Origin: Mustelus asterias
Taxonomy: Eukaryota
Direction: 5' to 3'
NCBI RefSeq assembly: GCF_964213995.1
Contig: NC_135823.1
Coordinates: 48,980,001 to 49,044,000, forward strand
Length of the DNA stretch: 64,000 bases
The notes below the pieces were generated by a model, which had not been told where the DNA came from, searched no databases, and worked only from the letters and a program-made list of their open reading frames with translations. Made by a program: the position numbers and the translations under genes. Below are positions 2,887 to 54,379 of the stretch, one piece after another; position 1 is the first letter of the stretch, and each line of letters starts with the position of its first letter.

Positions 2887-3544
2887 GATGTGGAGATGCC
2901 GGCGTTGGACTGGGGCAAACACAGTAAGAAGTCTCACAACACCAGGTTAAAGTCCAACAGGTTTATTTGGTATCAAGGCATGGTACATTGGGGAAACCAT
3001 GCAGACGCTACGACAACGGATGAATGAACCCCGCTCGACAATCACCAGGCAAGAGTGTTCTCTTCTTGTTGGGGAACACTTCAGCGGTCACGGGCATTCG
3101 GCCTCTGACCTTCGGGTAAGCGTTCTCCAAGGCGGCCTTCACGACAACGCAGAGTCGCTGAGCAGAGACTGATAGCCAAGTTCCGCACACATGAGGACGG
3201 CCTCAACCATGATCTTGGGTTCATGTCACACTATCTGTAACCCCCACGACTTGCCTGGGCTTGCAAAATCTCACTAACTGTCCTGGCTGGAGACAATACG
3301 CATCTCTTTAACCTGTGCTTAACCCTCTCTCCACTCACATTGTCTGTACCTTTAAGACTTGATTACCTGCAAAGACTCGCATTCCAACCATTATTTTGTA
3401 AATTGAGTTTGTGTCTTTATATGCCCTGTTTGTGAACAGAACTCCCACTCACCTGATGAAGGAGCAGCGCTCCGAAAGCTAGTGGCTTGTGCTACCAAAT
3501 AAACCTGTTGGACTTTAACCTGGTGTTGTGAGACTTCTTACTGT
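2887..3544 (+). mobile_element. Penelope-like element copy A (5'-truncated GIY-YIG end, pLTR and inverted terminal piece)
   Basis: From ~2976 it encodes AWYIGETMQTLRQRMNE.., matching ORF 28920-29801. 2887-2972 is the reverse complement of the element terminus. Flanks GTATATATAGCAT (2873-2885) and GTAAATATAGCAT (3543-3555) form a TSD with 1 mismatch. Confidence 0.9.
3449..3485 (+). ncRNA. Minimal type I hammerhead ribozyme motif in Penelope pLTR
   Basis: ucac-CUGAUGA-A-GGAGC(agc)GCUCC-GAAA-GC-UA-gugg: catalytic core, 5-bp stem II, stem I ucac/gugg and palindromic AGCU in place of stem III. Confidence 0.8.
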
Positions 3545-4921
3545 AAATATAGCATAACAGGCACCCAGAATTAAAGGAAAGAAACTCAAAGCACTGTGAT
3601 GAGTTCAATAGGAAAAAATATAGTTCTTTGGTGAGAAGTAAAGTTTGATTGCTGGTCTGTGCTGAGTTACCCAATCATAGCAATTAATAGGGTTCATGGC
3701 CCCTCCATTAGGGACAGGACAGGAAAATAAATCGGCCAGGATTGCCTCCCAGTCACATCAGGGAGGTGTGCAATGTTGAGTGAGGATTGGATGGGACTGG
3801 TGTGTGATGCTACCTACAGTGGAAGAGCCTATCAACAATCAAAAAATAAAGAATGGACATCCAACATCTATCATGCAGCATAAGTCAGGAAGAGGCAAAG
3901 TTGAAAAGAAAACTTGTATTAAATTTTGCAACATCTCAGTACATAATCACCCAGCCCCTCATGCCAGGACTGTTCCCAATGGCTGGGAGTGCAGTGTATA
4001 GGAGAGTACAATTGGGAGGGGTGTCAAAATTCATTCAAGGAAAAACTTGCCCATCTGTATTTTTTTTCCCCAAATGGGTTTCAGTGAATTTTCCAGTTAT
4101 TAGATTTGTATATTGTGGGAGCTTGATGACCTTTAATCCAGTCTTGCTGAGCATGTACATGTCACAGTATAAACTTCCTGCGTTCCTTTGACACCTTGTA
4201 ACTGGGCAGGCACTAGTTTTGACCGTGTGCTCTCTAACTGGCCAGGAATGGGGCGCCTCGGCTCCTGGTGCACACATGGCCCAAACATTCTTGTACAGCC
4301 TCGAGATTAATCTTCCTCTGCTGTTGCTGACATACAGGGAAGGGACTGTCTTTCCATCGAACAGGGACACCTGCTGCTGCTGCTGGAAATGGCAGATGTA
4401 TTTGCAGAGAGCAGTGGCAGAGGGGATTAGCACCACAGAAATAGCAGCGGATGCCATTATTCATCATACCCATGACACAGGATTGCCATTTTTAAAATCT
4501 AGCCCCCTCGGTGCTATTGGGCCAATCACATGCTGCCACAAGCAAGCAAAGGAGCCATGTGACCTGTTGGCCTGCCTCACCCCCTCCCCCATCAAAAAAG
4601 GAGGTTGTACTGATTCTGTTAACTAACAAATGGACTGGATTTTTTATTCCATGCATTTACTCTGTCAGATTTCTTTGGATCTTTTTCCTCTTCACTCCTC
4701 TGCTCCCAATCCTACTTAAAATTTAAAAGTTGCATTCTCCTATTCAATTGATCTCATCCATCAGCATCTTTGTAAACTCATCCAACTGGACAACCCTCCA
4801 GGATATCTGCTTTCTTCTAGCTGTGGGCTCTTAAGCTATTTGTGCCCGTGACTTCAGCTGACTAGGCACCAAGTTCTGGAATTCCCTTCCTAAAGATCTC
4901 TAACTCTCTTCCCCCACTTAA

Positions 4922-5277
4922 GGGGAGGCGATAGCCCAGTGGTATTATCGCTGGGCAATTAATCCAGAAACTCAGCTAATGTTCTGGGGACCCGGGTTCG
5001 CCACGGCAGATGATGGAATTTGAATTCAATTAAAAACAAAATCTGGAATTAAGAATCTGCTGATGACCACGAAACCATTGTCGATTGTCGGGAATAAACC
5101 CATCTGGTTCACTAATGACCTTTAGGGAAGGAAATCTGCCGTCCTTATCTGGTCTGGCCTACATGTGACTCCAGAGCCACAGCAACGTGGTTGACTCTCA
5201 ACTGCCCTTGGGCAACTAGGGATGGGCAATAAATGGTGGCCAGCCAGTAACACCCATGTCCCTCGAATGAATAAAAA
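4922..5277 (+). mobile_element. tRNA-headed SINE with a 3' tail shared with the 39.4-42.2 kb LINE
   Basis: TAGCCCAGTGG (A box) and GGGTTCG (B-box-like); its tail GGGCAACTAGGGATGGGCAATAAAT..CCCATGTCCC..GAATGAATAAAA matches 42156-42221. Confidence 0.75.
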
Positions 5278-5769
5278 ATGATTCACTTTTAAAACCTAAC
5301 TCTTGGTCACCTGCCTAATATCTCCTTAGGTGGCTCTGTGTCTAATTTTATCTATTAATGCTCATAGTAAGCACCATTCAACCTAGTACCACATTAAAAG
5401 TATTATTTTAATATAGGGGGTTGGTTTTATGCTGGGTATTAGGCAGTTGCCTACAGATTTGGACAACCACTATCTCTACTTTGCTTTTTAAAATCACAGA
5501 CAAACCTTAATCCTGTCCACATGGATGTAACTTTTGGCAAGGGTTGAGCAATAATTCAGGAGTAGAATCCCTGGTGCTAACCAAAGTAAAAATGAAGAGA
5601 TGTAAAACTGGTGACCAATTAATTATTTTCCACAAAAAGTCAAGACTACCCTAATGTCCTGAATTTGAGTGGTCTTCTGGTCAACATTAATCGGATGTTT
5701 ATCTGCACACATATGCTTAACACTTAGTCATAGAAAAACGCATGCACACAAAAAAAACGAATTGTTTTA

Positions 5770-6343
5770 AAAAAAACAAAGTACAAACTTTATTTCTTTC
5801 TTTGCAAGGCAGGTGCCTTTTTTCCCCACTTTCTTAACAAAATATAATAGTTTTTCCATGAACAAACCTCATCTCAACTTAAAAAACGGATACGGGAGAA
5901 ATGGAAGGAACTAACAAACCAACTACATGAAGAACAATGTTTAAAAAAATCACCTACATCAGTACAAGAAGCGGGGGGGGGGGCGGCAATTACAGAAGTG
6001 GGGTCCACAGTTCACACTGGGAGGAAGTGCCCCACTGGACTGAACAAATTGGTAAGTGCTTGAAACTCCCACCCCTCCCCAAAACGTAAAAAAATAAAAG
6101 AATGCTAAAATGTCCTTCAGCAACACTTGAGCTACGAATTCCAAGGTAGTCATGAGCGCAAGAAAGGATTTTGCAATCCCTTCTGGTATGGTCCAGATTT
6201 TTAATAGCCTCTCTCATTCCAGGCTGAGATGGTTTACAGTATTGGGAAGGTCGAAAAAGAGACCTCAACCTTTTTTTCCTTTCTCGGAATAAAAACATTG
6301 AGAACGATGTTTGGATCAATCCCGGCCTGGCACATCAGTAGTG
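5770..6343 (-). other. TFAP4: TFAP4 3' UTR with polyadenylation signal
   Basis: Non-repetitive sequence after the stop codon; AATAAA on minus at 5794-5789 followed by a U/GU-rich tract. Confidence 0.6.
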
Positions 6344-6520
6344 TCATGGAAGTACTCTCTCCATGGGCTCTTTCTCCTCGCCTGGCACCATAATTTCCGT
6401 CGCTTCACTCCTCTCCCTGTCTGATTCGGTGCCTGACCAAGCACGGTTAGGCTGGACAATGACCACTCGTCGCTGCTCCTCTTCCTGCTTCTCTTGTGTT
6501 CCTTCAATGTGCTGGATCGC
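6344..6520 (-). CDS. TFAP4: TFAP4 coding exon 7 (last)
   Basis: ttgcag|AIQHIEGTQEKQEEEQRRVVIVQP...ERVLP*; matches the AP-4 C-terminal motif AIQHIEGTQEKQ; 177 nt including the stop. Confidence 0.95.
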   Translation of the reverse strand, partial: AIQHIEGTQEKQEEEQRRVVIVQPNRAWSGTESDRERSEATEIMVPGEEKEPMERVLP

Positions 6521-6959
6521 CTGCAATTTAAATAGAAGAAACTCAGTGGTCATCAATCCATTGGGAGCAGGTGAAGAGAGGAGCACAGGGATGATTGTTT
6601 GATATGGAAAAAAATCTCAGTAAAGCTTCCCAGGTTGGCTGATTAGGAAACTACCACAAGAATCTTAGTGACCCACGGTTCAAATTGTGACTGTACCAAG
6701 TTAACCTGTCTTACTTGAGGTGCCACAGTTGGCATCAATGCCTGATCGTTCATTTCCCCAGCCCAGGGCAGGAATCTGCACTTGTGAAAACAGAAAATGC
6801 TGGAAATACTCAACAGGTCTGGCAGCATAAGTGGAAAGAGAAACAGAGTTAATATTTCAAGTTGAAGACTTTTCATCAAAACTGGGAAAATTTAAATAAG
6901 TATAGTAAACTGTGTTATCCGTGCTCTACCAACCAGAATTTTCTATTAACCAGAATTTC

Positions 6960-7186
6960 CATACACTCCTTACAGAACAGAAGGAGGCCATCGAGTCTCC
7001 GAAAGAACATCTTATCCCCACCCTATACCCGTAATCCCATGCTTTTACCATGGCTAATCCACCTAACCTACACATTTTTGGACTGTGGAAAGAAACCAGA
7101 GGACCCGGAGGAAACCCACCAAGCAGGGAGAACATGCAAACTCCACACAGTCAGCCAACGCTGGAATCAAACCAGGTCCCTGGCTC
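6960..7186 (-). mobile_element. HE1-like V-SINE copy
   Basis: Reverse complement of the TGTGTGGAGTTTGCA..GGGTTTCCTCCGGG core. Confidence 0.7.
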
Positions 7187-7499
7187 TGACGTTCTCCTAA
7201 CACAAATCATCACTTTACCAACCAAAGGTAATTACAAAGTGATACAGACCTCAAAGCTGTTTATTGTATTATTTTATGTTTTAATGCACTATTGAAGATT
7301 AGAAGCAAGAATACTATTCTTTATTTTCTGAGTACTTACATATTAGTTTGTGCTACATATCGTGTGTTTTATTCCATTAGTAAACTGAACTCTCCATTAG
7401 TCAGCATTTGAGTAACCAACACCACCCATGTATATAGGATTGGTGGTGCAAGACAAAAGGGAGTAATAATAGGACAAGAGAAGAAACATAAGATGCGGC

Positions 7500-8500
7500 T
7501 AGAGGAGATGTGAATGGCAGAATGATGAACAACTGCCATTTGAAAAAAAATAGAAAAATCAAAACCAGAAAAGAAAAAGGAAACAAAATGGAGACAGAGA
7601 TGACAATTTGGAATTGTTGGAACCCAATGTTGAGTCCAGAAGGCTATAAAGTCCCTAAAGAAAAGATGAGGTGCTTTTCCTCAAGCTTGCATTGATCTTC
7701 ATTGGAACACTGCAGAAGGCCAAGGGCAGAGGTCAGTATGGGAGCACGGTAGGGATAAATGGCAAGCCACAGGCAACTTACAGTCATCCTTGTGGACCGC
7801 AAAGCAGTCACCCAATCTGTATTTGATTTCCCCAATGGAGAGCTGATCACATTGTGAACAGCAAATACAGTAGACAAACTTTAAAGTAATATTTATAAAT
7901 TGCTGTTTCCCCTGAAAGGACTGTTTAGGGCCTTGGACAGCGAAGAGGGAGAAGGTAAAAGGGCAGGTGTTGGATCCATCTTCGCTCACAAGGGAAGGGA
8001 GTGACTGAGGAGCAGACCTTTCGGAATGCTGAAAGGGGAGGCCAAGATGTGTTTGATGGTAATGCTGAAGGTCGTAGAAAATGAGCCATTGAATATGGAT
8101 GCTGAATATGTACAGATGATGACAAGGGAAACCCTCTTATGCTTCTGGGAGGGAGGGTAAGGGGAGAGAACAGAAGTGTGGGAAATGGAGTATTCAGAGT
8201 CAAGGATCTTGTCAACTGCAGTGAGGGAGGTAGGGAAATCCTCAAAGAAAAAGGAACAAATATCAGAAGGGTTAGTGTAAGAGATTGTATCATCAGAATA
8301 GATGTAACAGAAATGGAGAAAGTGGGAGAATGGTAGAATCCTTACAGGAAACAGATTATCAGGCTGTGTAGTCAAATTAGTGGTGGGTTAATGAATATTG
8401 GTTGATAGCCTATCCCCAGAAATGGAGAAGGGAAGTGTCAGCCATGGACCATTCGAAGGCGAGAAAAGGGCAGAAACTGGAGGCAAAATTGGTAAAATTT
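7500..8500 (-). mobile_element. Old degenerate Penelope-like fragment (second family)
   Basis: Translation PFSHFLHFCYIYSDD resembles the PLE motif IPxSQxLRxxRICSD (compare IPYGQALRIHRICSD at ~28970); many stops and frameshifts; related terminal sequence at about 6785-6890. Confidence 0.5.
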
Positions 8501-8689
8501 TCTATTTGTAATGATTATTAAGAGAAACCCCCATTCCCAATTCAAAGAGTTTTCAGCCAAGAGAGACATAACAATCTCATATTGCTGGACTGGAGGAGAG
8601 AAAACCAGCAGGGCTCGCTCCCTCTCTGCACAAAGTTAGGAGGCATGGGAACTTATGTAAGTGAGAGCAGGATGTTACAAAAGGGAACA

Positions 8690-9000
8690 GAGAGAATAAA
8701 TAAGTGGCTAAACTACAGCATATGCAGTTCAGTGTAGGGAAGTGTAAGGTCTTTCAGTTTGGATCTGTGAAAGACAAGTCAGAATATTTCTTAATGATGG
8801 AAACAAGAAAGGTGTCTGAGTACACAAATCACCAAAAGTCAATTCACAGTTACACAAATCAGAAATGGCTAATGCAATGTTGGCCTTTATCTCAAAGAGA
8901 CTGAAATACAAAGGGGAAGAAATTATGCTTCAGTTGAATCATCTTGTTTAGACCCCATCTGGAGTGACTGCATTCAGTTCTGGGCACCACACCCGAAGAG
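8690..9000 (+). mobile_element. CR1 LINE RT fragment
   Basis: MQFSVGKCKV and a degenerate RPHLExCIQFWAP motif. Confidence 0.7.
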
Positions 9001-13495: not shown

Positions 13496-13687
13496 CTAAA
13501 AGATAACCAGAGAGGGGAAAAGAAGAAGTTATTATAACAAGTTAACCTGTGTTGCTCACTAACTTCTTATAAGAGCCCACTGCTGACACTGGCTGAAGCC
13601 TCACACAATTGTGTTCTGATTCTAAGAGAGGCATAACGAATTGATGTTACTGCATGCAGTTTGAGCACTAGGGAGGCAAGTGCTGAC

Positions 13688-13831
13688 CTGTGTCATAAGA
13701 TGGGACTCGGGCTCATGCTGCTCCTCCTGTTGAAGGATCTTGGGCTGCTCCTGGTGCCGTTGCTGCAGCTGTACTTGTTGCGCAATAGCCTTTAGTTTTT
13801 CAGGGTAAATGTGGGCGTCCAGCGAGCGAAC
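13688..13831 (-). CDS. TFAP4: TFAP4 coding exon 5
   Basis: gtcag|VRSLDAHIYPEKLKAIAQQVQLQQ...HLMTQ|gtcagc; 144 nt. Confidence 0.95.
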
Positions 13832-14092
13832 CTGACAACAGATGCACCTCATCAGTTTCTGAGGGACAGTGGAGAGCTTTCCGGAGATCAAATTAAAATA
13901 GGCTCTGGAAAAAGCGTGGCCTCCGATCCACTGGGCTCCTGTTTCACATGCAATGCTGAGTCTAGCTGGAAGTACCTGCTGCATTACTATCCCTCCCCAC
14001 CACTCCTAACACAGCTCCTAGCTGCTCGACAATACTTTGCCCAGGTGACAACTGTGTGCCCAGTCAGTGTCTGTGTGCCATTTAGGAATACA

Positions 14093-14827
14093 ATAGTATA
14101 GTGACAATGTAGGAATCCAGAGGCCCAGAATAATGATCTTGTCACATGAATTGAAACCTCACCAAGGCAACTGGGGAATTTCTATTCAGTTCATTAGATA
14201 AATCTGGAACAAAAAGCTAGTATCAGTAGCAGTCACAATGTCACAATGAAACTACCAATTGTCGTAAAAACCCATCTAGTTCACTGACTTCCTTTTGAGG
14301 GAGGAAATCTGTCATCCTTATCTGGCCTACAAGTAACTCCAGTTCCACAGCAATAAGGTTGACTTTTAACTACCCTTTGAAATGGCCCAGTAAGTCACTC
14401 AGTTGTAATCAAGGCGGCAGTTCATAAAATCCCTACATTGCGGAAGGAGGACCATTCGGCCCATCGAGTCTGCACCAGCTCACCGACAGAGCACCTTAGC
14501 CTGACCCACCCCTTGCCCTAGCCCTGTAGCCTCACGCATTTACCCTGCTAATTCCCCAAACGTACACATTTTGGGACACTAAAGGGAGAATTTAGCATGG
14601 CTAATCCATCTAACTTGCACATCTGTGGACTGTGGGAGGAAACCCACGCTGCCACGAGGAGAAAGTGCAAACTCAACACAGACAGTCGCCCAAGGCTGGA
14701 ATCGAACCCACGTCCCTGGCACTGTCAGGCAGCAGTGCTAACCACTGTGCCACTGTGCTGCCCCTTCTCGTGAGCAAAAATCCTTGCACTGCCACTGGTG
14801 CCCATCTTCATGAATGAATGGAATAAA
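14093..14827 (+). mobile_element. LINE-tailed SINE split by a minus-strand HE1-like SINE (about 14426-14762)
   Basis: AAAACCCATCTAGTTCACT..GGAAATCTG core as at 4922-5277; the tail resumes after the inserted V-SINE. Confidence 0.65.
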
Positions 14828-15311
14828 AGGACTATTTTTTATTTATTCATGGGATATGGGCGTCATTGGCTAGGCTAACATTCATTACCCATCCCTAAGA
14901 GAAGGTGGCGATGAACTGCCTTCTTGAACAGTTGCAGTCATTAGGTGTAGGTACACCCATAGTGCTGTTAGGGAAGGAGATCCGGTATTTTGACCTAGCG
15001 ACAGGGAAGGAACGACGACATATTTCCAAGTCAGGGTGGTGAGAGGCTTGGAGGGGAACGTCCAGGTGGTGGCATCACAACCAAACTCCTCACCTAACAT
15101 CCACACACAGACAGATTCCAGAGTAGCTTCCCGGACAGCATTCAAGCACAGAGATCATGTTCCCTTTCTCCCTCATCCGAGTGCTAAAGGTTAGTGTGAT
15201 CAACTGACTCGGCCCCAAGATCAAATCTGGTTCCTTCGGGTGTGCGTGCCTTAGTACTGCACCTGGTGCTGTTTCCATCTGTGAACATGCATCAAAGCAA
15301 ACACCACCAAC

Positions 15312-15482
15312 CTGTTCCTCCAGCATCATCCTGACTGAACGCTCCTTGTCCAACTGCTGTCGCAATTCAATCATTTCCCGCTTTAGGTCATCCAGCTTCT
15401 CATCTTCCCAGACATCAGGGGAGCCAATCCCTTCATCTTTATCCTCTGCACGTCTCCGCTTGGGGGAGGAACCACTGTACTC
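15312..15482 (-). CDS. TFAP4: TFAP4 coding exon 4 (second leucine zipper)
   Basis: ttccag|EYSGSSPKRRRAEDKDEGIGSPDVWEDEKLDDLKREMIELRQQLDKERSVRMMLEEQ|gttggt; 171 nt. Confidence 0.97.
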
Positions 15483-16394
15483 CTGGAAGGCAAAGCTCCG
15501 TTAAACGCAATGACACCTAATCCAAGTGTAATCACAATGGGAGTACTATGCTATTGAATGCGCTGCATTTTAGATGATACGTTAGGCAACTTCTCCCTGT
15601 GGCTTAACCAATATTTATCCTCGATCAACATAACAGAAAACAAGTTATCTGGTCATGTATCTCACTGCTGTTTGTGAGAGATTGCTATGTTTAAATTGGC
15701 TACTGTATCTCTTCATACTCAGTCCTTAAATGCAATCATTGTTAAACACCCACATAGAATATAACTGCTCATCACATGTGCCTGACAACACCCCAGTCAA
15801 GATCAATTGATGTTTATTGCTTGGGGCTATTAAGGCATATGAAGCAAAGACAGAAAAATTGAGTTGGGGAATAAACCAGCCACAATCCAACTAAATGGTG
15901 GAGCAGGCTCAAGAGTTAATGGCCTCCTCCTGTTCCTCTGTAAAGCACTCACTACAAGGATCATTCACTACTCAAACAGGGACATTAAAGTTATGGTCAA
16001 CTATTATTGTTGTACCTGCCAATGTCAGAGGACTATTGATGTGGTAGCCAGTTAAGCAGTCCCACATTGATGGGGCATACCTGTTTTAAAAATGGCAATA
16101 GGTTGTACTATCCCCTCCTTTCCAGCTACTATCCTCTGCCCACCACCTGTTGTCCACAGAGGGCATGTGTCTTCCTTAAAAGAGGCTTCTTTGAAAAGTG
16201 CAATGTGCAGCTCACCACCAGCACCACGAGTTACAAGACCGTAACCAAACTGTACAGTCCCCACCTCAACCTAAACACTGTATTCGTTCAATCTGCCAAG
16301 GCTGCACCCAGCGATGTCCCAGGAAAACAGGCAGCTGCCACTGGCCATTGCACACACCATCCCTTACCCCACCAAGTCCAGGCACTCTGCCCAC

Positions 16395-16493
16395 CTGAAT
16401 AAAACGCTTCAACTGAGAGTTCTGTTGAAGTAGTCGGGTTTTCTCTTGCTCGAGTGAAAAGATATATTCTGCCGTTTGCTGCAAAATGGCTGC
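16395..16493 (-). CDS. TFAP4: TFAP4 coding exon 3 (helix 2 and first zipper)
   Basis: cacag|AAILQQTAEYIFSLEQEKTRLLQQNSQLKRFIQ|gtgggc; 99 nt. Confidence 0.97.
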
Positions 16494-17151
16494 CTGTGAG
16501 GAAGAGAAATAACAGGTGCATGAATTGGGCCTCTCCAATCAGGGTAATATTTAATCACTGAAACTAAATTATCTCCTTCAATTGGAGAAAAATGCAACAT
16601 GAGGGAAGCTGATTATTGGGACTTTCTCCAATTTTGCATTTGTTCAACAGATACAGTAACACTCCATCATTAGCATTGGAAGACTTTCCTCCATCACCCA
16701 ATTGGACGCATTTAATCTCTCACGCTGAAACAGATTGTCCAATTAAACATGATCAACAAATTAATGTCATGGCAAAGGAGTATTGCTTTCCAGTCCTTTT
16801 TTTGTTTCAGTAAGAGACACACAACAGCTATTCTCAATGTATGCGACAAACGATTGAAAGGGATTCGCAATGCCCCTTCTGGAGTGTTTGGAAAATGTCC
16901 CTTTTCAATGTTTGAATCACTGTATTTTTTTTCTGCATTTATATTTGATATAAAAGTGCTTGCAACTTAACTTGGTGTATTTGAATGATAAACTACTTCA
17001 AATTATCAAAAAGAAATAGTTAAAACAAGCCCTCTGCCCCTACCCCTTCCTATTCTAAGTGCTGTAACCCTCTCTCCGATTCGGAGTGGTTTTGTCTCAG
17101 CACCTCAGTCCCCTGCTGGAAACTGTACAAATGGATCAATTGGAGCCTGAC

Positions 17152-17317
17152 CTTGCTGAGTTTCTCGCCATCAGTGTGTGGTATCAGTGTTTTCAGGGAC
17201 TGGAACCCAGCGTTGATGCTTTGCATTCGGCGCCGCTCATTGCTGTTGGCAATTTCTCTCCGTATCCTCCTCTCCTGGTCTCTCTGAGACTCTTGGGTCA
17301 GTGGGATATTAGCCAAG
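17152..17317 (-). CDS. TFAP4: TFAP4 coding exon 2 (basic region and helix 1)
   Basis: ttccag|(S)LANIPLTQESQRDQERRIRREIANSNERRRMQSINAGFQSLKTLIPHTDGEKLSK|gtcagg; 166 nt; phase fits exon 1. Confidence 0.98.
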
Positions 17318-19520: not shown

Positions 19521-20615
19521 TGAGGTGAGAGTGACTGCCTTTGACATCGGGACATCATTTGACTGAGTGTGGCATCTGGATCTTGAGCATAAGTGAAGCC
19601 AATGGGAATCGGGGAAAACTTAAGTGTTGTAGTCGTACCGAGCATGAAGGATGATAGTTGCGGTTTTTGAAGGTCTATTATCTCAGCCCCAAGACATTGT
19701 TGCAGGAATTCCTCAGGGAAGTGTCCTGGTTGCCACCATCTTTAGCTGTTTCATTCATGACCTTCCCTTCATCATAAGGTCAGAAGTGAAATGCTCACTG
19801 ATATATGCACAATGTTCAACACCATTCACGACTTCTCAGATATTGAAGCAGTCCATGACTATATGCAGCAGGACCTGGACAACTTTCAGGCTTGGGCTGA
19901 CAAGTAACATTCATGTTATACAAGCACCAGGCAATGACCATCTCCAACAAGAGAGAATCTAACCATCTCCCCTTGAAATTCAATGGTATTACTGTCACTA
20001 AATCTCCCATTATCAACATTGTACAGGTTACCATTGACCAGAAATGGAACTGGACCAGCCATTGCAATATTGTGATGCATGAACATGTCAGTGGTTGGGA
20101 ATTCTGCAACCAGTAACTTCCCCAAGCCTGCCCATCATCTGCAAGGCACAAGTCAGGAGCATGAAAGAATACTCTCCATTTGCCTGGATGGGTGCAGCTC
20201 CAACAACACTCAAGAAGCTCGACACCATCCATGACAAAGCAGCCCACTTGATTGACACCCCAAGTGCTACCTTCAACATTTAGTCCTTCCACCACTGATG
20301 CACAGTGGTAGCAGTGTGTACCATCTAATAACTTCTTCAACAGCACCTTCCAAACCCACAACCTCCAGCACTCAGAGGATAAGAGCAGCAGATACATGGG
20401 AACACCACCACCTGCAAGTTCTCCAATCTACACACAGCAGTGCTTTGGAACTAAATGACTATTCTTTCACTGTCACTGGGTGAAAATCCTGGAACTCCCC
20501 AACAGCAGTGTGGGTGCAGCGGTTCAAGCAAGTGGCTCACCACCACCTTCTCAAGAGCAATTAGGGATGGACAACAAATGTTGGCCTAGCCAGTGACATC
20601 CACCTCCCATGAAGT
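19520..20615 (+). mobile_element. CR1-group LINE 3' part (same family as 39.4-42.2 kb)
   Basis: GIPQGSVL..IFSCFIHDLP RT motif; YKAQVR-like region; tail TAGGGATGGACAACAAATG..CCCATGAA. Confidence 0.75.
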
Positions 20616-24905: not shown

Positions 24906-25505
24906 AAAACCTAAGGGCAGAGAAGAACAAGGACACATAATAGGGGGTGGGGAGAGGGGGGTCTAAAGAGAAAAGTGGAGAAGGGATAAAGGAGGAAATA
25001 GTAGTGATGGGCTCGGGTTGAGAGCGCCTGCCAAAGTGTACACAAAAGGTGGCAAGGTTATAAATTAGATCAAGATAACTAAGATTGAAATACATGTAGG
25101 AGTAGAGAGGAGTTAAGACATAAGTAAAAATAACGATTTAAAATCACCTCTTCTTGATTGCTCTTCTCATCCCATGAAATAATGTTGCCAATTTCAGAGA
25201 AATCATGCCATGTTCAATCGCACTCCTTGTTTAGTCCTGTGGCAGCTTGTGGCTTCTTAACCCCTCTATTCTATTAGGCAGGAGATAAAAGCTGTTTTAA
25301 TTAATCTTCCAAATTCCTCCAACATTAGCTCGGATGATAGGAAACTGATATTTGAACACTTGGAAGAAGGTAGGGCCAAAGGCTGCAAATATGAGTTTGC
25401 TCAGGTTATTTTCTCTCTGTCATAAAGCTATGGGTTTAAACTCAGCACAGTAAGAAGTCTCACGACACCAGGTTAAAGTCCAACAGGTTTATTTGGTAGC
25501 AAATA

Positions 25506-25540
25506 CCATGAGCTTTCGGAGCTTGCTGCTCCTTCGTCAG
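25506..25540 (-). ncRNA. Hammerhead core lacking its native 5' stem I strand
   Basis: Minus strand CUGACGA-A-GGAGC(agcaa)GCUCC-GAAA-GC-UC-augg, preceded directly by ORF-derived GGAUGUC. Confidence 0.6.
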
Positions 25541-26332
25541 GACATCCTTTCCTGCAGCGTATCAGGTAGACAACGTTGGCCGAGTTGCAAGAGTATGTAC
25601 CGTGTACCTGGTAGATGGTGTTCTCACGTGAGATGATGGCATCCGTGTCGATGATCCAGCATGTCTTGCAGAGGTTGCTGTGGCAGGGTTGTGTGGTGTC
25701 ATGGTCACTGTTCTCCTGAAGGCTGGGTAGTTTGCTGCGGACAATGGTCTGTTTGAGGTTGCGTGGTTGTTTGAAGGCAAGAAGTGGGGGTGTGGGGATC
25801 TTGCAACTCGGCCAACGTTGTCTACCTGATACGCTGCAGGAAAGGATGTCCCGAGGCATGGTACATTGGGGAAACCATGCAGACGCTACGACAACGGATG
25901 AATGAATACCGCTCGACAATCACCAGGCAAGACTGTTCTCTTCCTGTGGGGGAGCACTTCAGCAGTCACGGACATTCAGCCTTGGATCTTCAGGTAAGCG
26001 TTCTCCAAGGTGGCCTTCACGACACACGACAGCGCAGAGTCGCTGAGCAGAAACTGATAGCCAAGTTCCGCACACATGAGGACGGCCTAAACCGGGATGT
26101 TGGATTTATGTCACATTATCAGTAACCCCCACAGCTTGCCCCTGGTCTTGCATAATCTCACCAGCTGTTCTGTCTGGAGACAATACACATCTCTTTAACC
26201 TGTGTTTAATGTTCCCTCCAACCACATTATCTGTACCTTTTAAGACCTGGCTGGCTGTAGAGATTTGCATTCTAATTAGTATTCTGTAACTTGAATTCTG
26301 TGTCTGTGCACTGTTGGAGAACAGAGACCACT

Positions 26333-26371
26333 CCATCTGACGAAGGAGCAGCAAGCTCCGAAAGCTTATGG
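26333..26371 (+). ncRNA. Minimal type I hammerhead ribozyme motif
   Basis: ccau-CUGACGA-A-GGAGC(agcaa)GCUCC-GAAA-GC-UU-augg; stem I ccau/augg covaries with cac/gug of the other copies. Confidence 0.82.
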
Positions 26372-26774
26372 TATTTGCTACCAAATAAACCTGTTGGACT
26401 TTAACCTGGTGTTGTGAGACTTCTTACTGTGCTTACCCCAGTCCAACGCCTGCATCTCCACATCACATTTAAACTCAGCACCAGGATTTAAATGTAGAAC
26501 CTAGATTGGGAGCCATTTGTGTTTTGATTTATCATTAAACTAAGATCCTATTTGCCTGTTCGTGTGGAACAACTCGGGAGTTCTCCTGACTCGTATTTAT
26601 CTCTGAGTCAACACCAAAAACAGAATATCTGGTCATTCATCTCATTGTTGTTGCAGGACCTTGCTCTATCCAAATTGGCTGCTGTGTTTCTGACATTACA
26701 ACAACAACTTCACAAAGATGTAATTAATTAGCTGTTGTAAACACATTAGGATGACCTGGGGACATGAACAGCAA

Positions 26775-28967: not shown

Positions 28968-29801
28968 ATCCCCTACGGACAAGCCCTCCGTATACACAGG
29001 ATCTGCTCGGATGAGGAGGATCGCAACAGACACCTCCAGACGCTGAAAGATGCCCTCATAAGAACAGGATATGGCGCTCGACTCATTGATCAACAGTTCC
29101 AACGCGCCACGGCGAAAAACCGCACCAACCTCCTCAGAAGACAAACACGGGACACAGTGGACAGAGTACCCTTCGTTGTCCAGTACTTCCCCGGAGCGGA
29201 GAAGCTACGGCATCTCCTCCGGAGCCTTCAACATGTCATTGATGAAGACGAACATCTCGCCAAGGCCATCCCCACACCCCCACTTCTTGCCTTCAAACAA
29301 CCGCACAACCTCAAACAGACCATTGTCCGCAGCAAACTACCCAGCCTTCAGGAGAACAGTGACCATGACACCACACAACCCTGCCACAGCAACCTCTGCA
29401 AGACGTGCCAGATCATCGACACAGATGCCATCATCTCACGTGAGAACACCATCCACCAGGTACACGGTACATACTCTTGCAACTCGGCCAACGTTGTCTA
29501 CCTGATACGCTGCAAGAAAGGATGTCCCGAGGCATGGTACATTGGGGAAACGATGCAGACGCTGCGACAACGGATGAATGAACACCGCTCGACAATCACC
29601 AGGCAAGACTGTTCTCTTCCTGTTGGGGAGCACTTCAGCGGTCACGGTCATTCGGCCTCTGATATTCGGGTAAGCGTTCTCCAAGGCGGCCTTCGCGACA
29701 CACGACGGCGCAGAGTCGCTGAGCAGAAACTGATAGCCAAGTTCCGCACACACGAGGACGGCCTCAACCGGGACATTGGGTTCATGTCACACTATTTGTA
29801 A
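28968..29801 (+). pseudogene. 5'-truncated Penelope ORF: RT C-terminus, Cys-rich linker and GIY-YIG endonuclease
   Basis: Uninterrupted frame IPYGQALRIHRICSD..PCHSNLCKTC..NVVYLIRCKKGCPEAWYIGET..RMNEH..HF..H..GLN; no native start and no RT catalytic core. Confidence 0.88.
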
Positions 29802-29994
29802 CCCCCACAGAGTTTCACTGGCTGTCTTGTCTGGAGACAATACACATCTTTTTAGCCTGTCTTGATGCTCTCTCCACTCACGTTGTTTTGTTTCTTAAAG
29901 ACTTGATTAGTTGTAAGTATTCGCATTCCAACCATTATTCATGTAAATTGAGTTTGTGTCTTTATATGCTCTGTTTGTGAACAGAATTCCCACT

Positions 29995-30031
29995 CACCTG
30001 AAGAAGGGGCTTGCAGCTCCGAAAGCTTGTG
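29995..30031 (+). ncRNA. Minimal type I hammerhead ribozyme motif
   Basis: cac-CUGAAGA-A-GGGGC(uugca)GCUCC-GAAA-GC-UU-gug; stem II retained through a G-U pair. Confidence 0.8.
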
Positions 30032-30760
30032 TGGCTTTTGCTACCAAATAAACCTGTTGGACTTTAACCTGGTGTTGTTAAACTTCTTACTGTGAACACC
30101 ATTTGAAACAGCTTTGAATTTGCATGGGCATCCATCAATCATTACCCTTTGTTTCCTGTTACTAAGTCAACTTTCTATCCAGCTTGCCACATTACCCTGT
30201 ATCCCATGGGCTTTTATTTTTATGACCAATCTGCCATATGGGATCTTGTCAAACGCCTTGCTAAAATCCATGTACACAACATCCACTGCACTACCTTCAT
30301 CAACCCTTCTTGTCACTTCCTCAAAGAATTCAATCAAATTTGTGAGGAAAATCTTTGTTTGATCTTCCCCTGTATTCTAGACAACCAGGGTGGTCTAGAT
30401 TTGGCAGTAACACTTTTATTTTTGGAGGGGACATGTCTATGTTTTACATTTAGGATCTCGTTTTTTAGTGCTTCCCACTTGTTTTCCACTACTTTATCCT
30501 CTGGCAGTGCTGACCAGTCCACCTCAGCCAAATCCCTTCTCATTTCTGCAGAATTTGCCTTTCTCCGGTTCAAAACTTTTACTCCTGCTTTATCTCTGTC
30601 CTTTTCCATGGTAATGCTAAATCTAACTGAATTGAGATCACTATTCCCATTATGGTTGCCAACTGTCACTTCATCCACTTGCCCTTCTTCATCCCCTAAG
30701 TCTAGGCCTAGATTGTATCTCCTCTTGTTGGGTTTATCACTAATTGGTTGAAAATAGATT

Positions 30761-31080: not shown

Positions 31081-31122
31081 TTGAGGAAAAATGAATGAAC
31101 TCTCAGGGGTAAGGGGATTTTT

Positions 31123-39060: not shown

Positions 39061-39377
39061 TTTGTTGGAGGGCTGACCATTGCTGGGTCTAGATCCATGT
39101 ATTGCATTGCTTACAGTTTGGTGGCCTGAAAAAGTCATACGCAGGCTACCTGTAAGTCTTTATTGACTCTTAAAACTATTTGCAAATATACAGTAAAGGG
39201 TGCAAGCTAGGACCTGTCTCCATGCTCGCTGTGGCTCTGTCCAACTCTCAACTGACCTTGGGACAGGTCATGTGCTTCTTTCCTCACTTTGTGGGCAGTA
39301 CTGTACTCCCACATTAACCCTATTATGTTCCAGACCCTTTTACTACACATGGATATAGGGAGTCCTCTAGTCCTCCT

Positions 39378-42221
39378 TATTAACATCTGGGGGCTAGTGC
39401 CAAAATTGGGAGAGTTGTCTCACGGACTAGTCAAGCAACAGCCTGACATAGTCATTCTCACGGAATCATACCTTACAGATAACCCCCAGACACCACCATT
39501 ACCATCCCTGGATATGTCCTGTCTCACCAGCAGGACAGACCCAGCAGAGGTGGCGGCACAGTGGTATACAGTCAGGAGGGAGTTGCCCTGGAAGTCCTTA
39601 ACATCAACTCTGGACCCCATGAAGTCTCATGGCTTCAGGTTAAACGTGGGCAAGGAAACCTCTTACTGGTTACCACGTACCGTCCTCTTTTGGCTGATGA
39701 ATCAGTATTCCTCCATGTTGAGCAACACTTGGAGGAAGCACTGAGGGTGGCAAGGGCACAAAATGTACTCTGGATGCGGGATTTCAATGTCCATCACCAA
39801 GAATGGCTCAGTAGCAGCACTACTGATCGAGCTGGTCGGGTCCTAAAGGATATAACTGCTAGACTGGGTCTGCCGCAGGTGGTGAAGGAACCAACAAGAG
39901 GAAATAACATACTTGACCTCATCCTTACCAATCTGTCGGCTGCATATGCATCTGTCCATGACAATATTGGCAAGAGTGATCACCGCACAGTCCTTGTGGA
40001 GACAAAGTCCCGCCTTCACATTGAGAATAACCTCTATCGTGTTGTGTGGCACTATCACCATGTTAAATGGGACAGACTTCGAACCGATCTAGCAACTCAA
40101 GACTGGGCATCCATGAGGCGCTGTGGACCACCAACAGCAGCAGAATTGTACTCCAGCACAATCTGCAACCTCATGGCCCAGCATATCCCCCACTCAACCA
40201 TTACCATCAAGCCGGGGGATCAACCCTGGTTCAATGGAGAGTGTAGGAGGACAGGCCAGGAGCAGCACCAGGCATACCTAAAAATGAGGTGTCAACCTGG
40301 TGAAGCTACCAAACAGGACTACTTGCATGCCAAATGGAAAAAACAGCAAGTAATAGACAGAGCTAAGCGATCCCACAATCAACGGATCAGATCTAAGCTC
40401 TGCAATCCTTCCACATCCAGTCGAGAATGGTGGTGGGCAATTAAACAACTAACTGGAGGAGGAGGCTCCACAAATATCCCCATCCTCAATGATGGAGGAG
40501 CCCAGCACATCAGTGTAAAAGGTAAGGCTGAAACATTTGCAGCAATCTTCAGCCAGAGGTACCAAGTGGATGATCCATCTTGGCCTCCTCCAGTGGTCCC
40601 CAGCATCTCAGATGCCAGTTGCCAGCCAATTTGATTCACTCCATATGATATCAAGAAATGTTTGGAGACACTGGATATTGCAAAGACAATGGGCTCTGAT
40701 AACATTCCAGCAATAGTACTGAAGACTTGTGCTCCAGAACTTGCCGCTCCCCCAGCCAAGCTCTTTCTGTACAGTAACAACACTGGCATCCACCCAACAA
40801 TGTGGAAAATTGGCTAGGGGTATGTCCTGTACACAAAAAGCAGGACAAATCCAACCCGGCCAATTACCGCCTAATCAGTCTACTCTCAATCATCAGTAAA
40901 ATGATGGAAGGGGTAATCGACAGTGCTATCAAGCAGCACCTGCTCAGCAATAACCTGCTTAATGACGCCCAGTTTGGGTTTCATCAGGGTCACTCAGCTC
41001 CTGACCTCATTACAGCCTTGGTTCAAACATGGACAAAAGAGCTGAATTCCAGAGGCGAGAGTGACAGCACTTGATATCAAGGCCGCATTCGACTGATTGT
41101 GGCATCAAGGAGCCCTGGCGAAACTGGAATCAATGGGTATCAGGGGCAAACTCTCCACTGGTTGGAGTCATACCTGGTACATAGGAAGATGGTTGTGGTT
41201 GTGAAGGGTCAGTCATCTCAGCTCCACGACATCTCTGCAGGGTCTCTCAGGGTAGTGTCCTAGGCCCAACAATCTTCAGCTGCTTCATCAATGACCTTCC
41301 CTCCGTCATAAGGCCAGAAGTGGGGATGTTTGCCGATGATTGCACAATATTCAGCACCATTCGTGATTCTTCAGATACTGAAGCAGTCCATGTTCAAATG
41401 CAACAAGATCGGGACAATATCTAGGCTTGGGCTGACAAGGGGCAAGTAACATTCGTGCCACACAAATGTCAGGCAATTACCATCACCAATAAGAGACACT
41501 CTAACCACTGCTCCTTGACATTCAATGGTGTAACCATCACTGAATCCCCCACTGTCAACATCCTTGGGGTTACCATTGACCAGAAACTCAACTGGACTCA
41601 CCACATAAACACAGTGACTACAAGAGCAGGTCAGAGGCTAGGAATATTGTGGCGAGTAACTCACCTCCTGACTCCCCAAAGCCTTTCCACCACCTCCAAG
41701 GCACAAGTCAGGAATGTGATGGAATAATGCCCACTTGCCTGGATGGGTGCAACTCCAACAACACTCAAGAAGCTTGACACCATCCAGAACAAAGCAGCCC
41801 GCTTGATTGGCGCCACATCTACAAACATTCAATCCCTTCATCACCAACGCTCAGTCGCAGCAGTGTGTACTATCTAAGAGATGCACTGCAGCAATTCACC
41901 AAAGATCCATAGACAGCACCTTCTACACCCACGACCACTTCCATCTAGGACAAGGGCAGCAGATAAATGGGAACACCACCACCTGCAAGTTCCCCGCCAA
42001 GCCACTCACCATCCTGACTTGGAAATATATTGCCATTCCTTCACAGTCACTGGGTCAAAATCCTGGAATTCCCTCCCTAACAACAATGTGGGTCAACCCA
42101 CAGAACATGGACTGCAGCGATTCAAGAAGGCAGCTCACCACCACCACCTTCTCTAGGGCAACTAGGGATGGGCAATAAATGCTGGCCAGAAAGCGACGCC
42201 CATGTCCCATGAATGAATAAA
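39378..42221 (+). mobile_element. Nearly full ORF2 CR1/L2-group LINE (APE endonuclease and RT), frameshifted
   Basis: QQPDIVILTESYL, RDFNVHH, LDLILTN, SDH, NYRLISLLSIISKMME, DIKAAFD, QGSVLGP and MFADDC motifs; 3' tail ending GAATGAATAAAA. Confidence 0.9.
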
Positions 42222-45610: not shown

Positions 45611-45647
45611 ACCCACTGAGTCAAAGCTGACGCTAATGTAACTATTG

Positions 45648-47973: not shown

Positions 47974-47984
47974 GTAAGATCCCA

Positions 47985-50085
47985 ACCGATCGCCAGCGAT
48001 CCGCTCGACACAATGATCCACCCGACACAGCGATCCACTCTGGATGCAGTAATCCACACCATATGCAGTGACCCACTCGGGACACAATGATCAATTCCAT
48101 ATACAGCGATCCACTCCCGATACAGTATTCCACTAGACACAGCGATCCACTCCCGATACAGTAATCCATTAGACACAGCGATCCACTCCCGATACAGTAA
48201 TCCACTAGACACACCGATCCACTCCCGATGCAATAATCAACTCCATATACAGTGATCCACTGCCAACATAGCGACCCCTCCCTGGCACAGTAATCCACCC
48301 GACACAGTGATCCACTCCCGATGCAGTAATCCACTCCATATTCAGTGACCCACTCGGGACACAATGATCAATTCCATATACAGTGATCCACTCCCGATCC
48401 ACTGCCAACATAGCGACCCTTCCCCGACACAGTGATCCACTCCCGACAGAGCTAGCCACTCCACACAGTAATCCACTCCAGATGGTGATCCACTCTCTAC
48501 ACAGCTATCCACCCCACACAGTAATCCACTCCAGATAGTGATCCACTCTCTACACAGCTATCCACCCCACACAGTAATCCACTCCAGACATAATGATCCA
48601 CTCCCGATACAGTAATTAACTCCCTATATAGCAATGCACCCAGACACAGATCCACAACCGACACAGTGATCCACCCTCTATACAGTGACCCACTCCCGAC
48701 ACAGTGATCCACCCTCTATACAGTGACCCACTCCCGACACAGCGATCCATCCGACACAATGGTCCATTCTACACTGCGATCAACTCCCAGCATCATGATC
48801 CATCGACATAACGATTCACTGCTGACACAATGATCTACTTTCTATACAGTGATCCACGTCACACTGCGATCCACTCCGACACGGTTATCCACTCCCGACA
48901 CAATGATCCACTCTCAACACAGTGATTCACCCCACACTGCAATCAGCACCTACACAGCGATCCATTCCCAACATGACGGTCTACTGCACCACAGTGATCC
49001 ACTCCCAATATTTAGATCCGACCGCCACAGCGATCCACTCCCGACACAGAGATCCATCCCAGCATTGCGCCCCACCCGACACCCTATAGAGATCCACGCC
49101 CAACGTCGCGATTAACTCCCTACATAATGATCCACTCCAAGCTTTGTAATCCATCCAAACATTGCGACCCAATCCCGACACAGTAATCCACCCTAAACTG
49201 CGAGCCACCTCGAACACAGTGATATACTCCCTTCAAGGCGACACATTCGACACATTGATCCACTCCAAACACTGCAGCCACATCCTGAACATCGATCCAC
49301 TCTCAACATTGTGGCCCACCATGCAAGGATCCACTCCCTACACAGTGATCTACTCCCTGCCTCCCAATGTATTCAGTGATCTACTCCCTATGCTATTATT
49401 TACATCCTACATATTGATACAGGTCCAACATTACAATCCACCTCTACACCGCGATCCACTCGGTGTACAAGAATCTACTCCCTATACTGCGAGCCACTTC
49501 CAATGTTACAATATTACACCCCAAGGTCAAACTGTGACCCACTTCCTGTGTAACGCAAAGATCCACTTCCCACACCGTGATCCACTCGCTACTCAGTGAC
49601 CTACTTCCAGCATTCACATTGCGACCCACTCCCTACATGTTAAACAGTAAACCACACTCAACTTTCCATATGATCCACTCAATACACTGTGACTCACTCC
49701 CAGCATTACACTCTGATATACCCCGAGTATCACACTGGGATCCGCTTCTAGTTTTGCACAGTAATCAATTCCCAGCATCATGCTGCAATCTACACATAGT
49801 ATCTCACTGTAACCTACTTCCATTTCACACTGTGATCCATTTCCTGCGTTGCGCTGTAATGCCAGCATGACACTGTGATCTACTCACAATATCACACCAT
49901 AATCTACTCCTAGTATCACACAATGGTCCACTTCCAGCGTTGCACTGTAATCCATTCCCAGTATTACTCTGTGATCCTCTCCCAGTGTTACTCTGTGGTC
50001 TGCTCCCAGTGTTACTCTGTGACTCACTCCCAATATTATTCTGTGATCCTCTCCCAGTGTTCCTTACTCTGTGACCCACTCCCAG
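47985..50085 (+). repeat. Degenerate minisatellite, ~19-bp unit ACACAGTGATCCACTCCCG, about 2.1 kb
   Basis: Recurrent GATCCACTCCC every 17-21 nt; local higher-order units such as a 36-bp dimer x3 at about 48100-48215. Confidence 0.9.
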
Positions 50086-50699: not shown

Positions 50700-51125
50700 A
50701 GGTCCTCCATCCCTGAGTACCCACTGCCCACCCCCAAGTACCCCCTTCCTAAATTCCCCCACTCCCTGGGTTTCCCCTCTCCCTGAGATTCCCACTTCCC
50801 AAATTCCTCTTCTCTCTCCAAATTCTCCTCTCCCCGAGTTCCCCTTCTCCCTGAGGTTCCTCTCTCCCTGAGCTCCTCCTCTCCCTGAGGTCCCCCTCTC
50901 TCCGAGTTCCCCCTCTCCCAAAGGTCCCCCTTTCCCCGAGCTCCCCCTCTCTTCGAGCTCCCCCTCTCTCCAAGCTCCCCTTCTCCCTGAGGTTCCTCTC
51001 TCCCTGAGCTCCTCCTCAGAGGTCCCCCTCTCTCCGAGTTCCCCCTCTCTCTGTATTCTTTCTCTACCGGAGTTCGCTCTCTGCCTGAGTTTCCCCTTCT
51101 GCCTGAGTTTCCCCTTTTCCTGAGT
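50700..51125 (+). repeat. Pyrimidine-rich tandem repeat (~19-20 bp, CCTGAGTTCCCCCTCTCT-like)
   Basis: Repeated GAG(T/C/G)TCCCC(C)TCTCTCC units with strong strand asymmetry. Confidence 0.85.
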
Positions 51126-53634: not shown

Positions 53635-53671
53635 CACAAGCTTTCGGAGCTGCAAGCCCCTTCTTCAGGTG
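53635..53671 (-). ncRNA. Minimal hammerhead motif (left arm)
   Basis: Reverse complement of cac-CUGAAGA-A-GGGGC(uugca)GCUCC-GAAA-GC-UU-gug. Confidence 0.78.
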
Positions 53672-54141
53672 AGTGGGAATTCTGTTCACAAACAGAGCAT
53701 ATAAAGACACAGACTCAATTTACATGAATAATGGTTGGAATGCGAATACTTACAACTAATCAAGTCTTTAAGAAACAAAACAATGTGAGTGGAGAGAGCA
53801 TCAAGACAGGCTAAAAAGATGTGTATTGTCTCCAGACAAGACAGCCAGCGAAACTCTGTGGGGGTTACAGATAGTGTGACATGAACCCAATATCCCGGTT
53901 GAGGCCGTCCTCAACCGGGATATTGGGTTCATGTCACACTATCTGTAACCCCCACAGAGTTTCACTGGCTGTCTTGTCTGGAGACAATACACATCTTTTT
54001 AGCCTGTCTTGATGCTCTCTCTACTCACATTGTTTTGTTTCTTAAAGACTTGATTAGTTGTAAGTATTCGCATTCCAACCATTATTCATGTAAATTGAGT
54101 CTGTGTCTTTATATGCTCTGTTTGTGAACAGAATTCCCACT

Positions 54142-54178
54142 CACCTGAAGAAGGGGCTTGCAGCTCCGAAAGCTTGTG
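54142..54178 (+). ncRNA. Minimal hammerhead motif (right arm)
   Basis: cac-CUGAAGA-A-GGGGC(uugca)GCUCC-GAAA-GC-UU-gug. Confidence 0.78.
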
Positions 54179-54379
54179 TGGCTTTTGCTACCAAATAAAC
54201 CTGTTGGACTTTAACCTGGTGTTGTTAAACTTCTTACTATGGCTGATGATCACAGATTACTCACTTGTAGAAAGTAAAATCTCCAAATTGAATACAGAAC
54301 ATTTCCCAAGCTATTGCTCACAGTGGATTGGAGGAGATGGCAGAAGCTACACAGGAAGTTGCCATTTGGTTGCTTGAAC

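What the first reader, a model, noticed from the sequence alone, without database searches (positions are those of the whole stretch)
2887..54238. Penelope pLTRs carry minimal hammerhead ribozymes with compensatory changes between subfamilies
Seen: six motifs (3449, 25506 minus, 26333, 29995, 53635 minus, 54142) keep CUGANGA and GAAA invariant while N7 (U/C/A), loop II and the cleavage base (A/U/C) vary. Stem I covaries (cac/gug versus ccau/augg) and stem II tolerates a G-U pair, even though the surrounding pLTRs differ. All have an extra A after A9 and the palindrome AGCU instead of a stem III hairpin. Known: minimal type I hammerheads occur in Penelope-like elements and are proposed to cleave as dimers; an extra A at this position is tolerated in a viroid hammerhead. 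Inference: these were selected, catalytically competent ribozymes processing the RNA of a recently active shark family.
Basis: partly seen in the sequence, partly recalled or inferred. Interest (0 to 1): 0.7.

Follow-up and report, generated by a model that had tools for sequence, protein, structure and literature searches.

The report
Shark Penelope hammerheads at transcript start
These are real copies of the tiny "hammerhead" self-cutting RNA motif already known from Penelope-type jumping genes, lying here in four broken insertions of a very abundant family; genome-wide insertion ends suggest the motif is likely the first 40 letters of the element's capped RNA and likely stayed uncut in most RNAs that were copied.

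Summary
All six motifs are present and the predicted cut positions are right. They lie in four truncated insertions and represent three sequence types; the copy at 25506 has lost half of stem I. The host is a Neptune-type Penelope-like element with at least 142,000 end-pieces in this genome. The motif matches the published minimal PLE hammerhead (Cervera and De la Peña 2014).

Selection acted on master lineages. No shared change falls in 14 core columns, against 64 of 188 upstream pLTR columns, and stem pairs covary. The 38 nt downstream are equally invariant, and individual copies decay.

The TATA-less subfamily shows only 326 there. Most copies read through the cut site. Ends at the cut are only about 1.8-fold above their neighbours and are not the highest bin. 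Catalysis was not tested.

The scan noted the motif, the start-site footprint and a cut-site footprint before, in this and other genomes. Verdict: new member of a known kind; interest 0.33.

The parts
2886..3544 (+). Insertion A: inverted arm (tail plus pLTR 3' end, 2886-2976, minus) joined to a 5'-truncated copy (endonuclease remnant plus pLTR, 2976-3544); 9-nt target-site duplication 2877-2885 / 3547-3555
3418..3423 (+). TATA-like box, 29 nt before the inferred transcript start at 3447 (A type)
   Evidence: sequence; TATA in 13 of 16 A-type copies; start inferred
3449..3485 (+). Minimal hammerhead, A type: stem I 3449-3452 / 3482-3485, core 3453-3459, extra A 3460, stem II 3461-3465 / 3469-3473, GAAA 3474-3477, AGCU palindrome 3477-3480, predicted cut after A3481
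25444..26466 (+). Insertion B: inverted pLTR end (25444-25540), inverted ORF piece (25537-25799), forward endonuclease remnant plus pLTR plus tail (25799-26466); about 14-nt target-site duplication
25506..25540 (-). Truncated hammerhead, B type: core and stem II intact, 5' strand of stem I missing; cannot fold as the motif
26333..26371 (+). Minimal hammerhead, B type (CCAU/AUGG stem I; no TATA box upstream); predicted cut after U26367
28933..30094 (+). Insertion C: inverted 36-nt tail (28933-28968), open frame remnant 28968-29801 with CX4CXXC linker and GIY-YIG endonuclease, pLTR 29802-30094; about 13-nt target-site duplication
29963..29968 (+). TATA-like box, 29 nt before the inferred transcript start at 29992 (C type)
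   Evidence: sequence; TATA in 106 of 108 C-type copies
29995..30031 (+). Minimal hammerhead, C type (youngest; G.U pair in stem II); predicted cut after U30028
30041..30078 (+). 38-nt segment 3' of the hammerhead with no shared change between lineages; likely a separate cis element near the reverse-transcription start sites
   Evidence: role inferred from PMC11167929
53538..54239 (.). Insertion D: near-perfect palindrome of two C-type pLTRs joined 5' end to 5' end, tail on the left arm; 13-nt target-site duplication
53635..53671 (-). Minimal hammerhead, C type, left arm of insertion D; predicted cut at 53638
54142..54178 (+). Minimal hammerhead, C type, right arm of insertion D; predicted cut after 54175

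Best explanation
The motifs are the known minimal hammerhead of Penelope-like element pLTRs, carried here by truncated insertions of a Neptune-type family; in active master elements it likely forms the first 40 or so nucleotides of a capped transcript and likely cuts only slowly or with help, so most copied RNAs were likely uncut. Shown: motif anatomy, host element, core invariance and pair-keeping changes across lineages, a pile-up of 5' ends with an extra G 29 nt after a TATA box, and read-through of the cut site in most copies. Inferred: transcription starts at that A. The element's protein primes internally near the tail and copies back across the hammerhead; on a 5' pLTR it runs off the cap and leaves stubs, and on an internal pLTR it continues into the ORF. 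Cleavage needs a second AGCU (dimer) or the element's protein, as published for other PLEs. It would remove the capped 35-37-nt leader and cut tandem transcripts into units, acting as a late switch rather than a required step for insertion. The four window insertions are by-products with no sign of selection of their own.
For: Host: RVT_1 in a full 892-aa ORF, GIY-YIG, CHSNLCKTC linker and DKG, tail, inverted arms and duplications. Selection: 0 of 14 core columns with lineage-shared changes against 64 of 188 upstream non-coding columns, P=0.004; 11-nt core alone P=0.012. Shared changes sit at N7, loop II and stem positions. In 27 chosen variants three pairs change on both sides; 93% of cells pair, against 28-49% for slid partners. 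H17 is U, A or C in all 242 core-bearing copies, never G. Start site: 5,477 ends at the A against 209 four nt upstream. All 60 inspected were true junctions; G precedes in 27 of 37 with no adjacent inverted arm, 29% expected, P=5e-8. TATA is present in C 106/108, D 5/5 and A 13/16, absent in B 0/68, and B has only 326 such ends. Read-through: 38,865 exact B-type copies; 4 of 94 ORF-start matches continue upstream through a whole pLTR into the previous ORF. PMC11167929 reports a protein-assisted PLE hammerhead that was not needed for insertion in vitro.
Against: No cleavage was measured. The 38 nt downstream are as invariant as the core (0 of 38), so excess conservation is not unique to the ribozyme. 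Lineages are few and related, so the shuffle control overstates significance (pairs with two-sided change: 60 of 500 shuffles reach the observed 3). The absence of G17 rests on a handful of independent changes. One lineage variant breaks the outer pair of stem II (3 of 27 rows). Neither the monomer nor the double-hammerhead fold is the minimum-energy state for types A and C, and z-scores are near 0. The start-site pile-up is mostly from the older D type (about 70% of 60 by eye). The extra G could be untemplated addition unrelated to a cap. Rfam found no hammerhead.
Confidence: 0.72

Rival explanations
1. Cut-and-circle route: paired hammerheads excise a unit-length RNA that is ligated into a circle. 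Long genomic copies are reverse transcribed round the circle, which restores the cut site and looks like read-through.
For: Proposed in PMC4209133. Copies running from tail through hammerhead into the ORF are the rule. The two full-ORF copies begin inside the 5' hammerhead region. B-type ends at the cut are about 1.8-fold above both neighbouring bins.
Against: Read-through is equally explained by uncut tandem transcripts. Stubs with an extra G at the start site must come from linear, uncut RNA. The ends of long ORF-start copies are scattered (-221 to +50), not at the cut. PMC11167929 found no RNA reads ending at the cut in anole.
Confidence: 0.25
2. The motif is kept as a folded protein-binding or promoter element at the transcript start, and cutting is vestigial.
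For: It overlaps the inferred start site. The next 38 nt are equally invariant. Monomer and dimer folds are not favoured. PMC8557442 reports that clades without hammerheads proliferate well.
Against: Invariance follows the catalytic positions while N7 and H17 vary, and G17 is absent. Type B lost the TATA box and the start-site footprint yet kept the core with a compensated stem I pair.
Confidence: 0.15
3. The apparent conservation and covariation come from recent common descent of a few master copies, with no selection on the motif.
For: The family is young and the lineages few; related sequences beat the shuffle control without structure (caveat).
Against: The same lineages changed 64 of 188 upstream columns but 0 of 14 core columns. 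Three two-sided changes fall on predicted pairs, with 0 or 1 in slid controls.
Confidence: 0.04

Closest known systems
Minimal hammerheads (min-HHR) of metazoan PLE pLTRs, Cervera and De la Peña 2014 (PMC4209133; parts 1-2 of 4 read)
   Same: Type I topology, no helix III, one extra nucleotide between 9 and 10.1, G10.1-C11.1, palindromic 15.2-16.2, short helix I, families with compensatory changes, mostly single motifs in truncated copies, pairs on opposite strands 100-700 bp apart.
   Different: Sharks are not named in the parts read (supplements not opened). Copy number is far higher here (at least 142,000 end-pieces against 4,000-9,000 motifs in coelacanth and Xenopus). Stem II is 5-6 bp. 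The paper says nothing on transcript starts.
PAc (Poseidon) hammerhead of the green anole, Frangieh et al. 2024 (PMC11167929; parts 1-2 of 4 read)
   Same: Hammerhead just 5' of the tail and the internal reverse-transcription start sites; uncut RNA is the main template; protein-assisted cleavage shown there.
   Different: In PAc the ORF starts in stem II and the cut lies 26 nt into the ORF. Here the ATG lies about 100 nt 3' of the cut, straight after the tail, so the motif is non-coding.
Neptune/Nematis endonuclease-positive PLEs (PMC8557442; passages read)
   Same: RT, CX2-5CxxC linker and C-terminal GIY-YIG; 5' truncation, inverted 5' arms, partial tandems, 30-40-bp tail.
   Different: Neptune versus Nematis was not resolved by a tree; no microsatellite targeting is evident at the four window insertions.
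Drosophila virilis Penelope promoter (PMC2377424; passages read)
   Same: Transcription starts inside the pLTR, upstream of the ORF.
   Different: That promoter is internal and TATA-less. Here the inferred start follows a TATA box at -29 in types A, C and D.
Non-LTR retrozymes (bioRxiv 10.64898/2026.07.22.740005; part 1 of 5 and passages read)
   Same: PLE-related type I hammerheads; one chondrichthyan genome was sampled.
   Different: Retrozymes are head-to-tail tandem repeats. These are dispersed single or inverted pieces of an autonomous element.

Membership tests
PLE minimal type I hammerhead | Core CUGANGA ... GAAA ... UH | tested here: met
   All six window motifs; 0 shared changes in 11 core columns across 111 copies
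PLE minimal type I hammerhead | Extra nucleotide between A9 and 10.1; G10.1-C11.1 pair | tested here: met
   A in 240 of 242 core-bearing copies; G-C in 27 of 27 variants
PLE minimal type I hammerhead | Palindromic 15.2-16.2 in place of helix III | tested here: met
   AGCU in all six; no shared change
PLE minimal type I hammerhead | Helix I closing the ends (type I) and helix II, supported by covariation | tested here: met
   Five of six motifs have helix I; three two-sided changes. Not met for the copy at 25506.
PLE minimal type I hammerhead | Located in the pLTR of a PLE | tested here: met
   About 200 nt after the ORF stop and about 65 nt before the tail
PLE minimal type I hammerhead | Self-cleavage at H17 as a dimer or with protein | not testable with these tools
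   No assay; the genomic end footprint is inconclusive
Rfam hammerhead families | Match to a curated covariance model | tested here: not met
   No hammerhead match to E=10; expected for a motif without helix III (inference)
Endonuclease-positive PLE, Neptune/Nematis type | Single ORF with RT and C-terminal GIY-YIG | tested here: met
   892 aa, RVT_1 E=4e-9; GIY-YIG at the curated cut-off; YIDD, DKG
Endonuclease-positive PLE, Neptune/Nematis type | CX2-5CxxC linker before the endonuclease | tested here: met
   CHSNLCKTC at residue 754
Endonuclease-positive PLE, Neptune/Nematis type | Placement in the Neptune clade on an RT tree | not tested
   No reference sequences fetched
Non-LTR retrozyme | Head-to-tail tandem non-coding units, each with a hammerhead | tested here: not met
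   Window copies are single or inverted and three of four insertions keep clear ORF remnants

The most novel reading that the evidence does not exclude
The PLE hammerhead is a self-decapping switch. It is the first 35-37 nt of a TATA-driven capped mRNA, and the genome records both states of the RNA: thousands of cap run-off stubs from uncut RNA, and a small excess of ends at the cut from cleaved RNA. A natural TATA-less subfamily (type B) lost the cap footprint but kept the ribozyme, which gives a built-in control.
Probability: 0.3. Interest if true: 0.62.

Novelty: new member of a known kind. Interest (0 to 1): 0.33.

Why it matters
The motif itself is published, so a shark example adds little. 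What the PLE hammerhead does is still open (PMC8557442 calls it unclear; PMC11167929 found it dispensable for insertion in vitro). A family with over 140,000 copies lets insertion ends act as a fossil record of the template RNA. They point to a capped start at the ribozyme's first bases and to mostly uncut templates. That gives exact coordinates for 5' RACE and cleavage assays, and a TATA-less subfamily as a control.

Tried and rejected
Rfam scan: no hammerhead hit. DNA search of the own genome returned nothing because common words are skipped. Folding of five motif regions: z between -1.0 and +0.3; stem II always forms, but the full motif is near the minimum only for type B. The double-hammerhead fold scores 11-20 kcal/mol worse than the cofold minimum, so energy gives no support for the dimer. 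First end-mapping script chose references by reach and misplaced short copies near the cut; it was replaced. Cut-site pile-up: suggestive in the sample (11 of 408 at 0/-1, some of them alignment artefacts) but not a unique peak genome-wide, so it is not claimed as shown. The MAFFT alignment of long copies mis-registered H17 and stem I, so those columns were not used; one search was used instead. Sequencing runs: no RNA holder listed. The four runs laid were contigs, which cannot show ends, strand or expression. Lünse et al. (PMC5785218) was not held and is known only through a review passage. Four paper searches ran. None listed a paper on shark PLE hammerheads or on cap-derived G in PLE insertions; subscription journals and supplements were not covered.
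Full report
1. Observation. A regex scan and direct reading find the six motifs, with CUGANGA starting at 3453, 25540(-), 26337, 29998, 53668(-) and 54145. Each has an extra A, a 5-6-bp stem II, GAAA, GCU and then A, U or C. The bare pattern gives 11 matches against 2.46 +/- 1.50 by chance; the other five lack the AGCU that follows GAAA in the family copies. Rfam reports no hammerhead. Self-comparison shows four insertions, each with a target-site duplication. The motif at 25506 lacks the 5' strand of stem I. The two motifs near 53.6-54.2 kb are arms of one palindrome, and the three C-type copies differ at 6-8 of 341 nt. The window thus holds three types (A, B, C), too few to show covariation alone.

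2. Host element. The frame at 28968-29801 hits GIY-YIG. Its relatives in the genome number 97,617 candidates, the 140 scored ones at 98-100% identity. Two fetched copies hold an intact 892-codon ORF starting straight after a tail of about 35 nt, with RVT_1, YIDD, DKG and a CX4CXXC linker. By PMC8557442 (passages) that linker marks Neptune or Nematis. A 33-mer just 3' of the motif has 142,429 exact matches. 'Shark' was not tested.

3. Selection. I collected 411 copies in 211 loci using only the 53 nt downstream of the motif as anchor. The loci were chosen near known hits, and 50 by similarity to the C-type protein, so type C is over-represented. Of 126 long copies, 111 were kept after dropping 15 same-locus repeats. 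On a tree built without the motif, changes shared by three or more copies fall in 0 of 14 core columns (11 catalytic, the extra A, G15.2 and C16.2) and in 64 of 188 upstream non-coding columns (P=0.004; 11 nt alone P=0.012; shared-to-tip ratio P=0.028). Tip changes do hit the core (14 in 14 columns; G12>A five times, at a CpG), so copies decay after insertion. Against specificity, the 38 nt downstream also show 0 shared changes.

For pair counts I aligned 27 of 126 distinct variants: three window types, 14 seen in two or more loci, and 10 rarer ones. Ten variants seen in two or more loci were left out as single-change forms; two of those break a pair. Result: two-sided changes at 2.1-1.1 (C-G/U-A), 10.3-11.3 (A-U/G.U/G-C) and 10.4-11.4 (G-C/A-U); 93% of cells paired against 28-49% for slid partners. 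The fourth stem I pair is broken in 12 of 27 and the outer stem II pair in 3 of 27. H17 is never G in 242 core-bearing copies, but this rests on few independent changes.

4. Do insertion ends record cleavage? For type B I counted genome-wide the matches with two non-element letters just before a given position. Raw counts: -4/-5 359, -2/-3 522, 0/-1 (the cut) 901, +1/+2 484, +3/+4 1,332. Thirty loci per bin were read: 29, 27, 28, 17 and 29 were true junctions. Corrected for letter retention: 658, 836, 1,497, 836 and 2,291, against 38,865 copies that read exactly through. The cut bin is 1.8-fold above both neighbours but below +3/+4. About a quarter of the 100 listed cut-bin matches (counted by eye) are explained by microhomology with the inverted arm, and the +3/+4 bin has a similar class and also admits other types. 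I rate this as a weak hint, less firm than notes e1-9129149 and e1-9938807 put it. Long ORF-start copies begin at scattered positions, and 4 of 94 ORF-start matches run upstream through a whole pLTR into the previous ORF.

5. The stronger footprint is upstream. My sample showed ends clustering at -47 to -30 (note). The extra-G test was prompted by earlier notes. Genome-wide, 5,477 copies of types A, C and D start at the A 2-3 nt before stem I, against 209 four nt upstream (about 16-fold after correction). The first 60 listed were fetched: all are junctions and 48 have G before the A. Leaving out 23 where an adjacent inverted arm could template the G, 27 of 37 have G (29% expected, P=5e-8), and 13 of 17 with no inverted arm. 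An extra G is a reported mark of reverse transcription across the cap (PMC4038843, passages, citing L1 and AMV work). The A lies 29 nt after a TATA box found in C 106/108, D 5/5 and A 13/16, and in 0/68 B and 0/12 A2 copies. Type B has only 326 ends there, a background level. So the motif is likely the first 40 or so nt of a capped transcript; in type C the cut follows nt 37 and the ATG is at nt 137.

6. Mechanism. Shown: anatomy, lineage-level conservation, end distributions. Inferred: TATA-driven start at the A; internal priming near the tail, as shown for the anole element (PMC11167929, parts 1-2); run-off at the cap giving stubs; read-through of an internal, uncut or re-ligated hammerhead giving long copies; pairing of two cDNAs giving the inverted arms. 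Cleavage is probably slow and dependent on a dimer or protein: PMC4209133 found no monomer and low dimer activity, and PMC11167929 found protein dependence. My folding gives no energetic support for the active fold in A and C. If it cuts, it would remove the cap and release unit RNAs. Type B kept the core after losing the TATA box, which argues that the motif is not just promoter sequence.

7. Comparison and novelty. This is a new member of a known kind. The start-site footprint was not found in print in four searches (supplements and subscription journals not seen), but the scan had noted it in other genomes, and 1,136 notes in at least 37 genomes hold the same search words. The TATA-less control subfamily is the part added here. 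Interest 0.33; novel case probability 0.3, interest 0.62 if true.

Noticed in passing
window 13622-17300, minus strand: Exons of a bHLH-leucine-zipper gene (frames near 17241, 16445, 15090-15500, 13622-14005). It looks like TFAP4 (name recalled, not from a call). Insertions B-D lie 5' of these exons, A lies 3'.
   Followed up: partly
window 30041-30078 and equivalents: A 38-nt non-coding segment after the hammerhead is invariant across all lineages, more significantly than the core; a candidate protein-binding or priming element.
   Followed up: partly
L121-L210: Many small fragments extend 92-94 nt (others 40-75 nt) into the ORF start and stop, suggesting further internal reverse-transcription start sites beyond the tail.
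   Followed up: no
window 29990-30034: In type C a GU insertion allows an alternative 6-bp stem I with a 2-nt bulge (CCA-CU-CAC with GUGUGG), closer to a canonical stem I; not tested.
   Followed up: no
L178, L125, L132, L142: Partial tandem copies with an internal hammerhead between two ORFs; candidates for transcribable master arrangements.
   Followed up: partly
runs X1, X2, X3, X7 laid on window 29600-30095: Contigs from other coded organisms hold related elements. Listed differences in the motif fall at N7, 10.3 and loop II, plus G12>A in 7 contigs of X3 (table cut).
   Followed up: no
window 47990-50060, 50740-51115, 61354-61603: Degenerate minisatellite arrays with units of about 17-19/24, 17 and 42 nt.
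   Followed up: no
window 94-188, 11534, 12407, 14646, 30775; 19758-20427, 39256-42178, 56300-57902: Dispersed tRNA-like SINE heads and LINE remnants with an APE-type endonuclease frame at 39483-40634 (family labels recalled).
   Followed up: no
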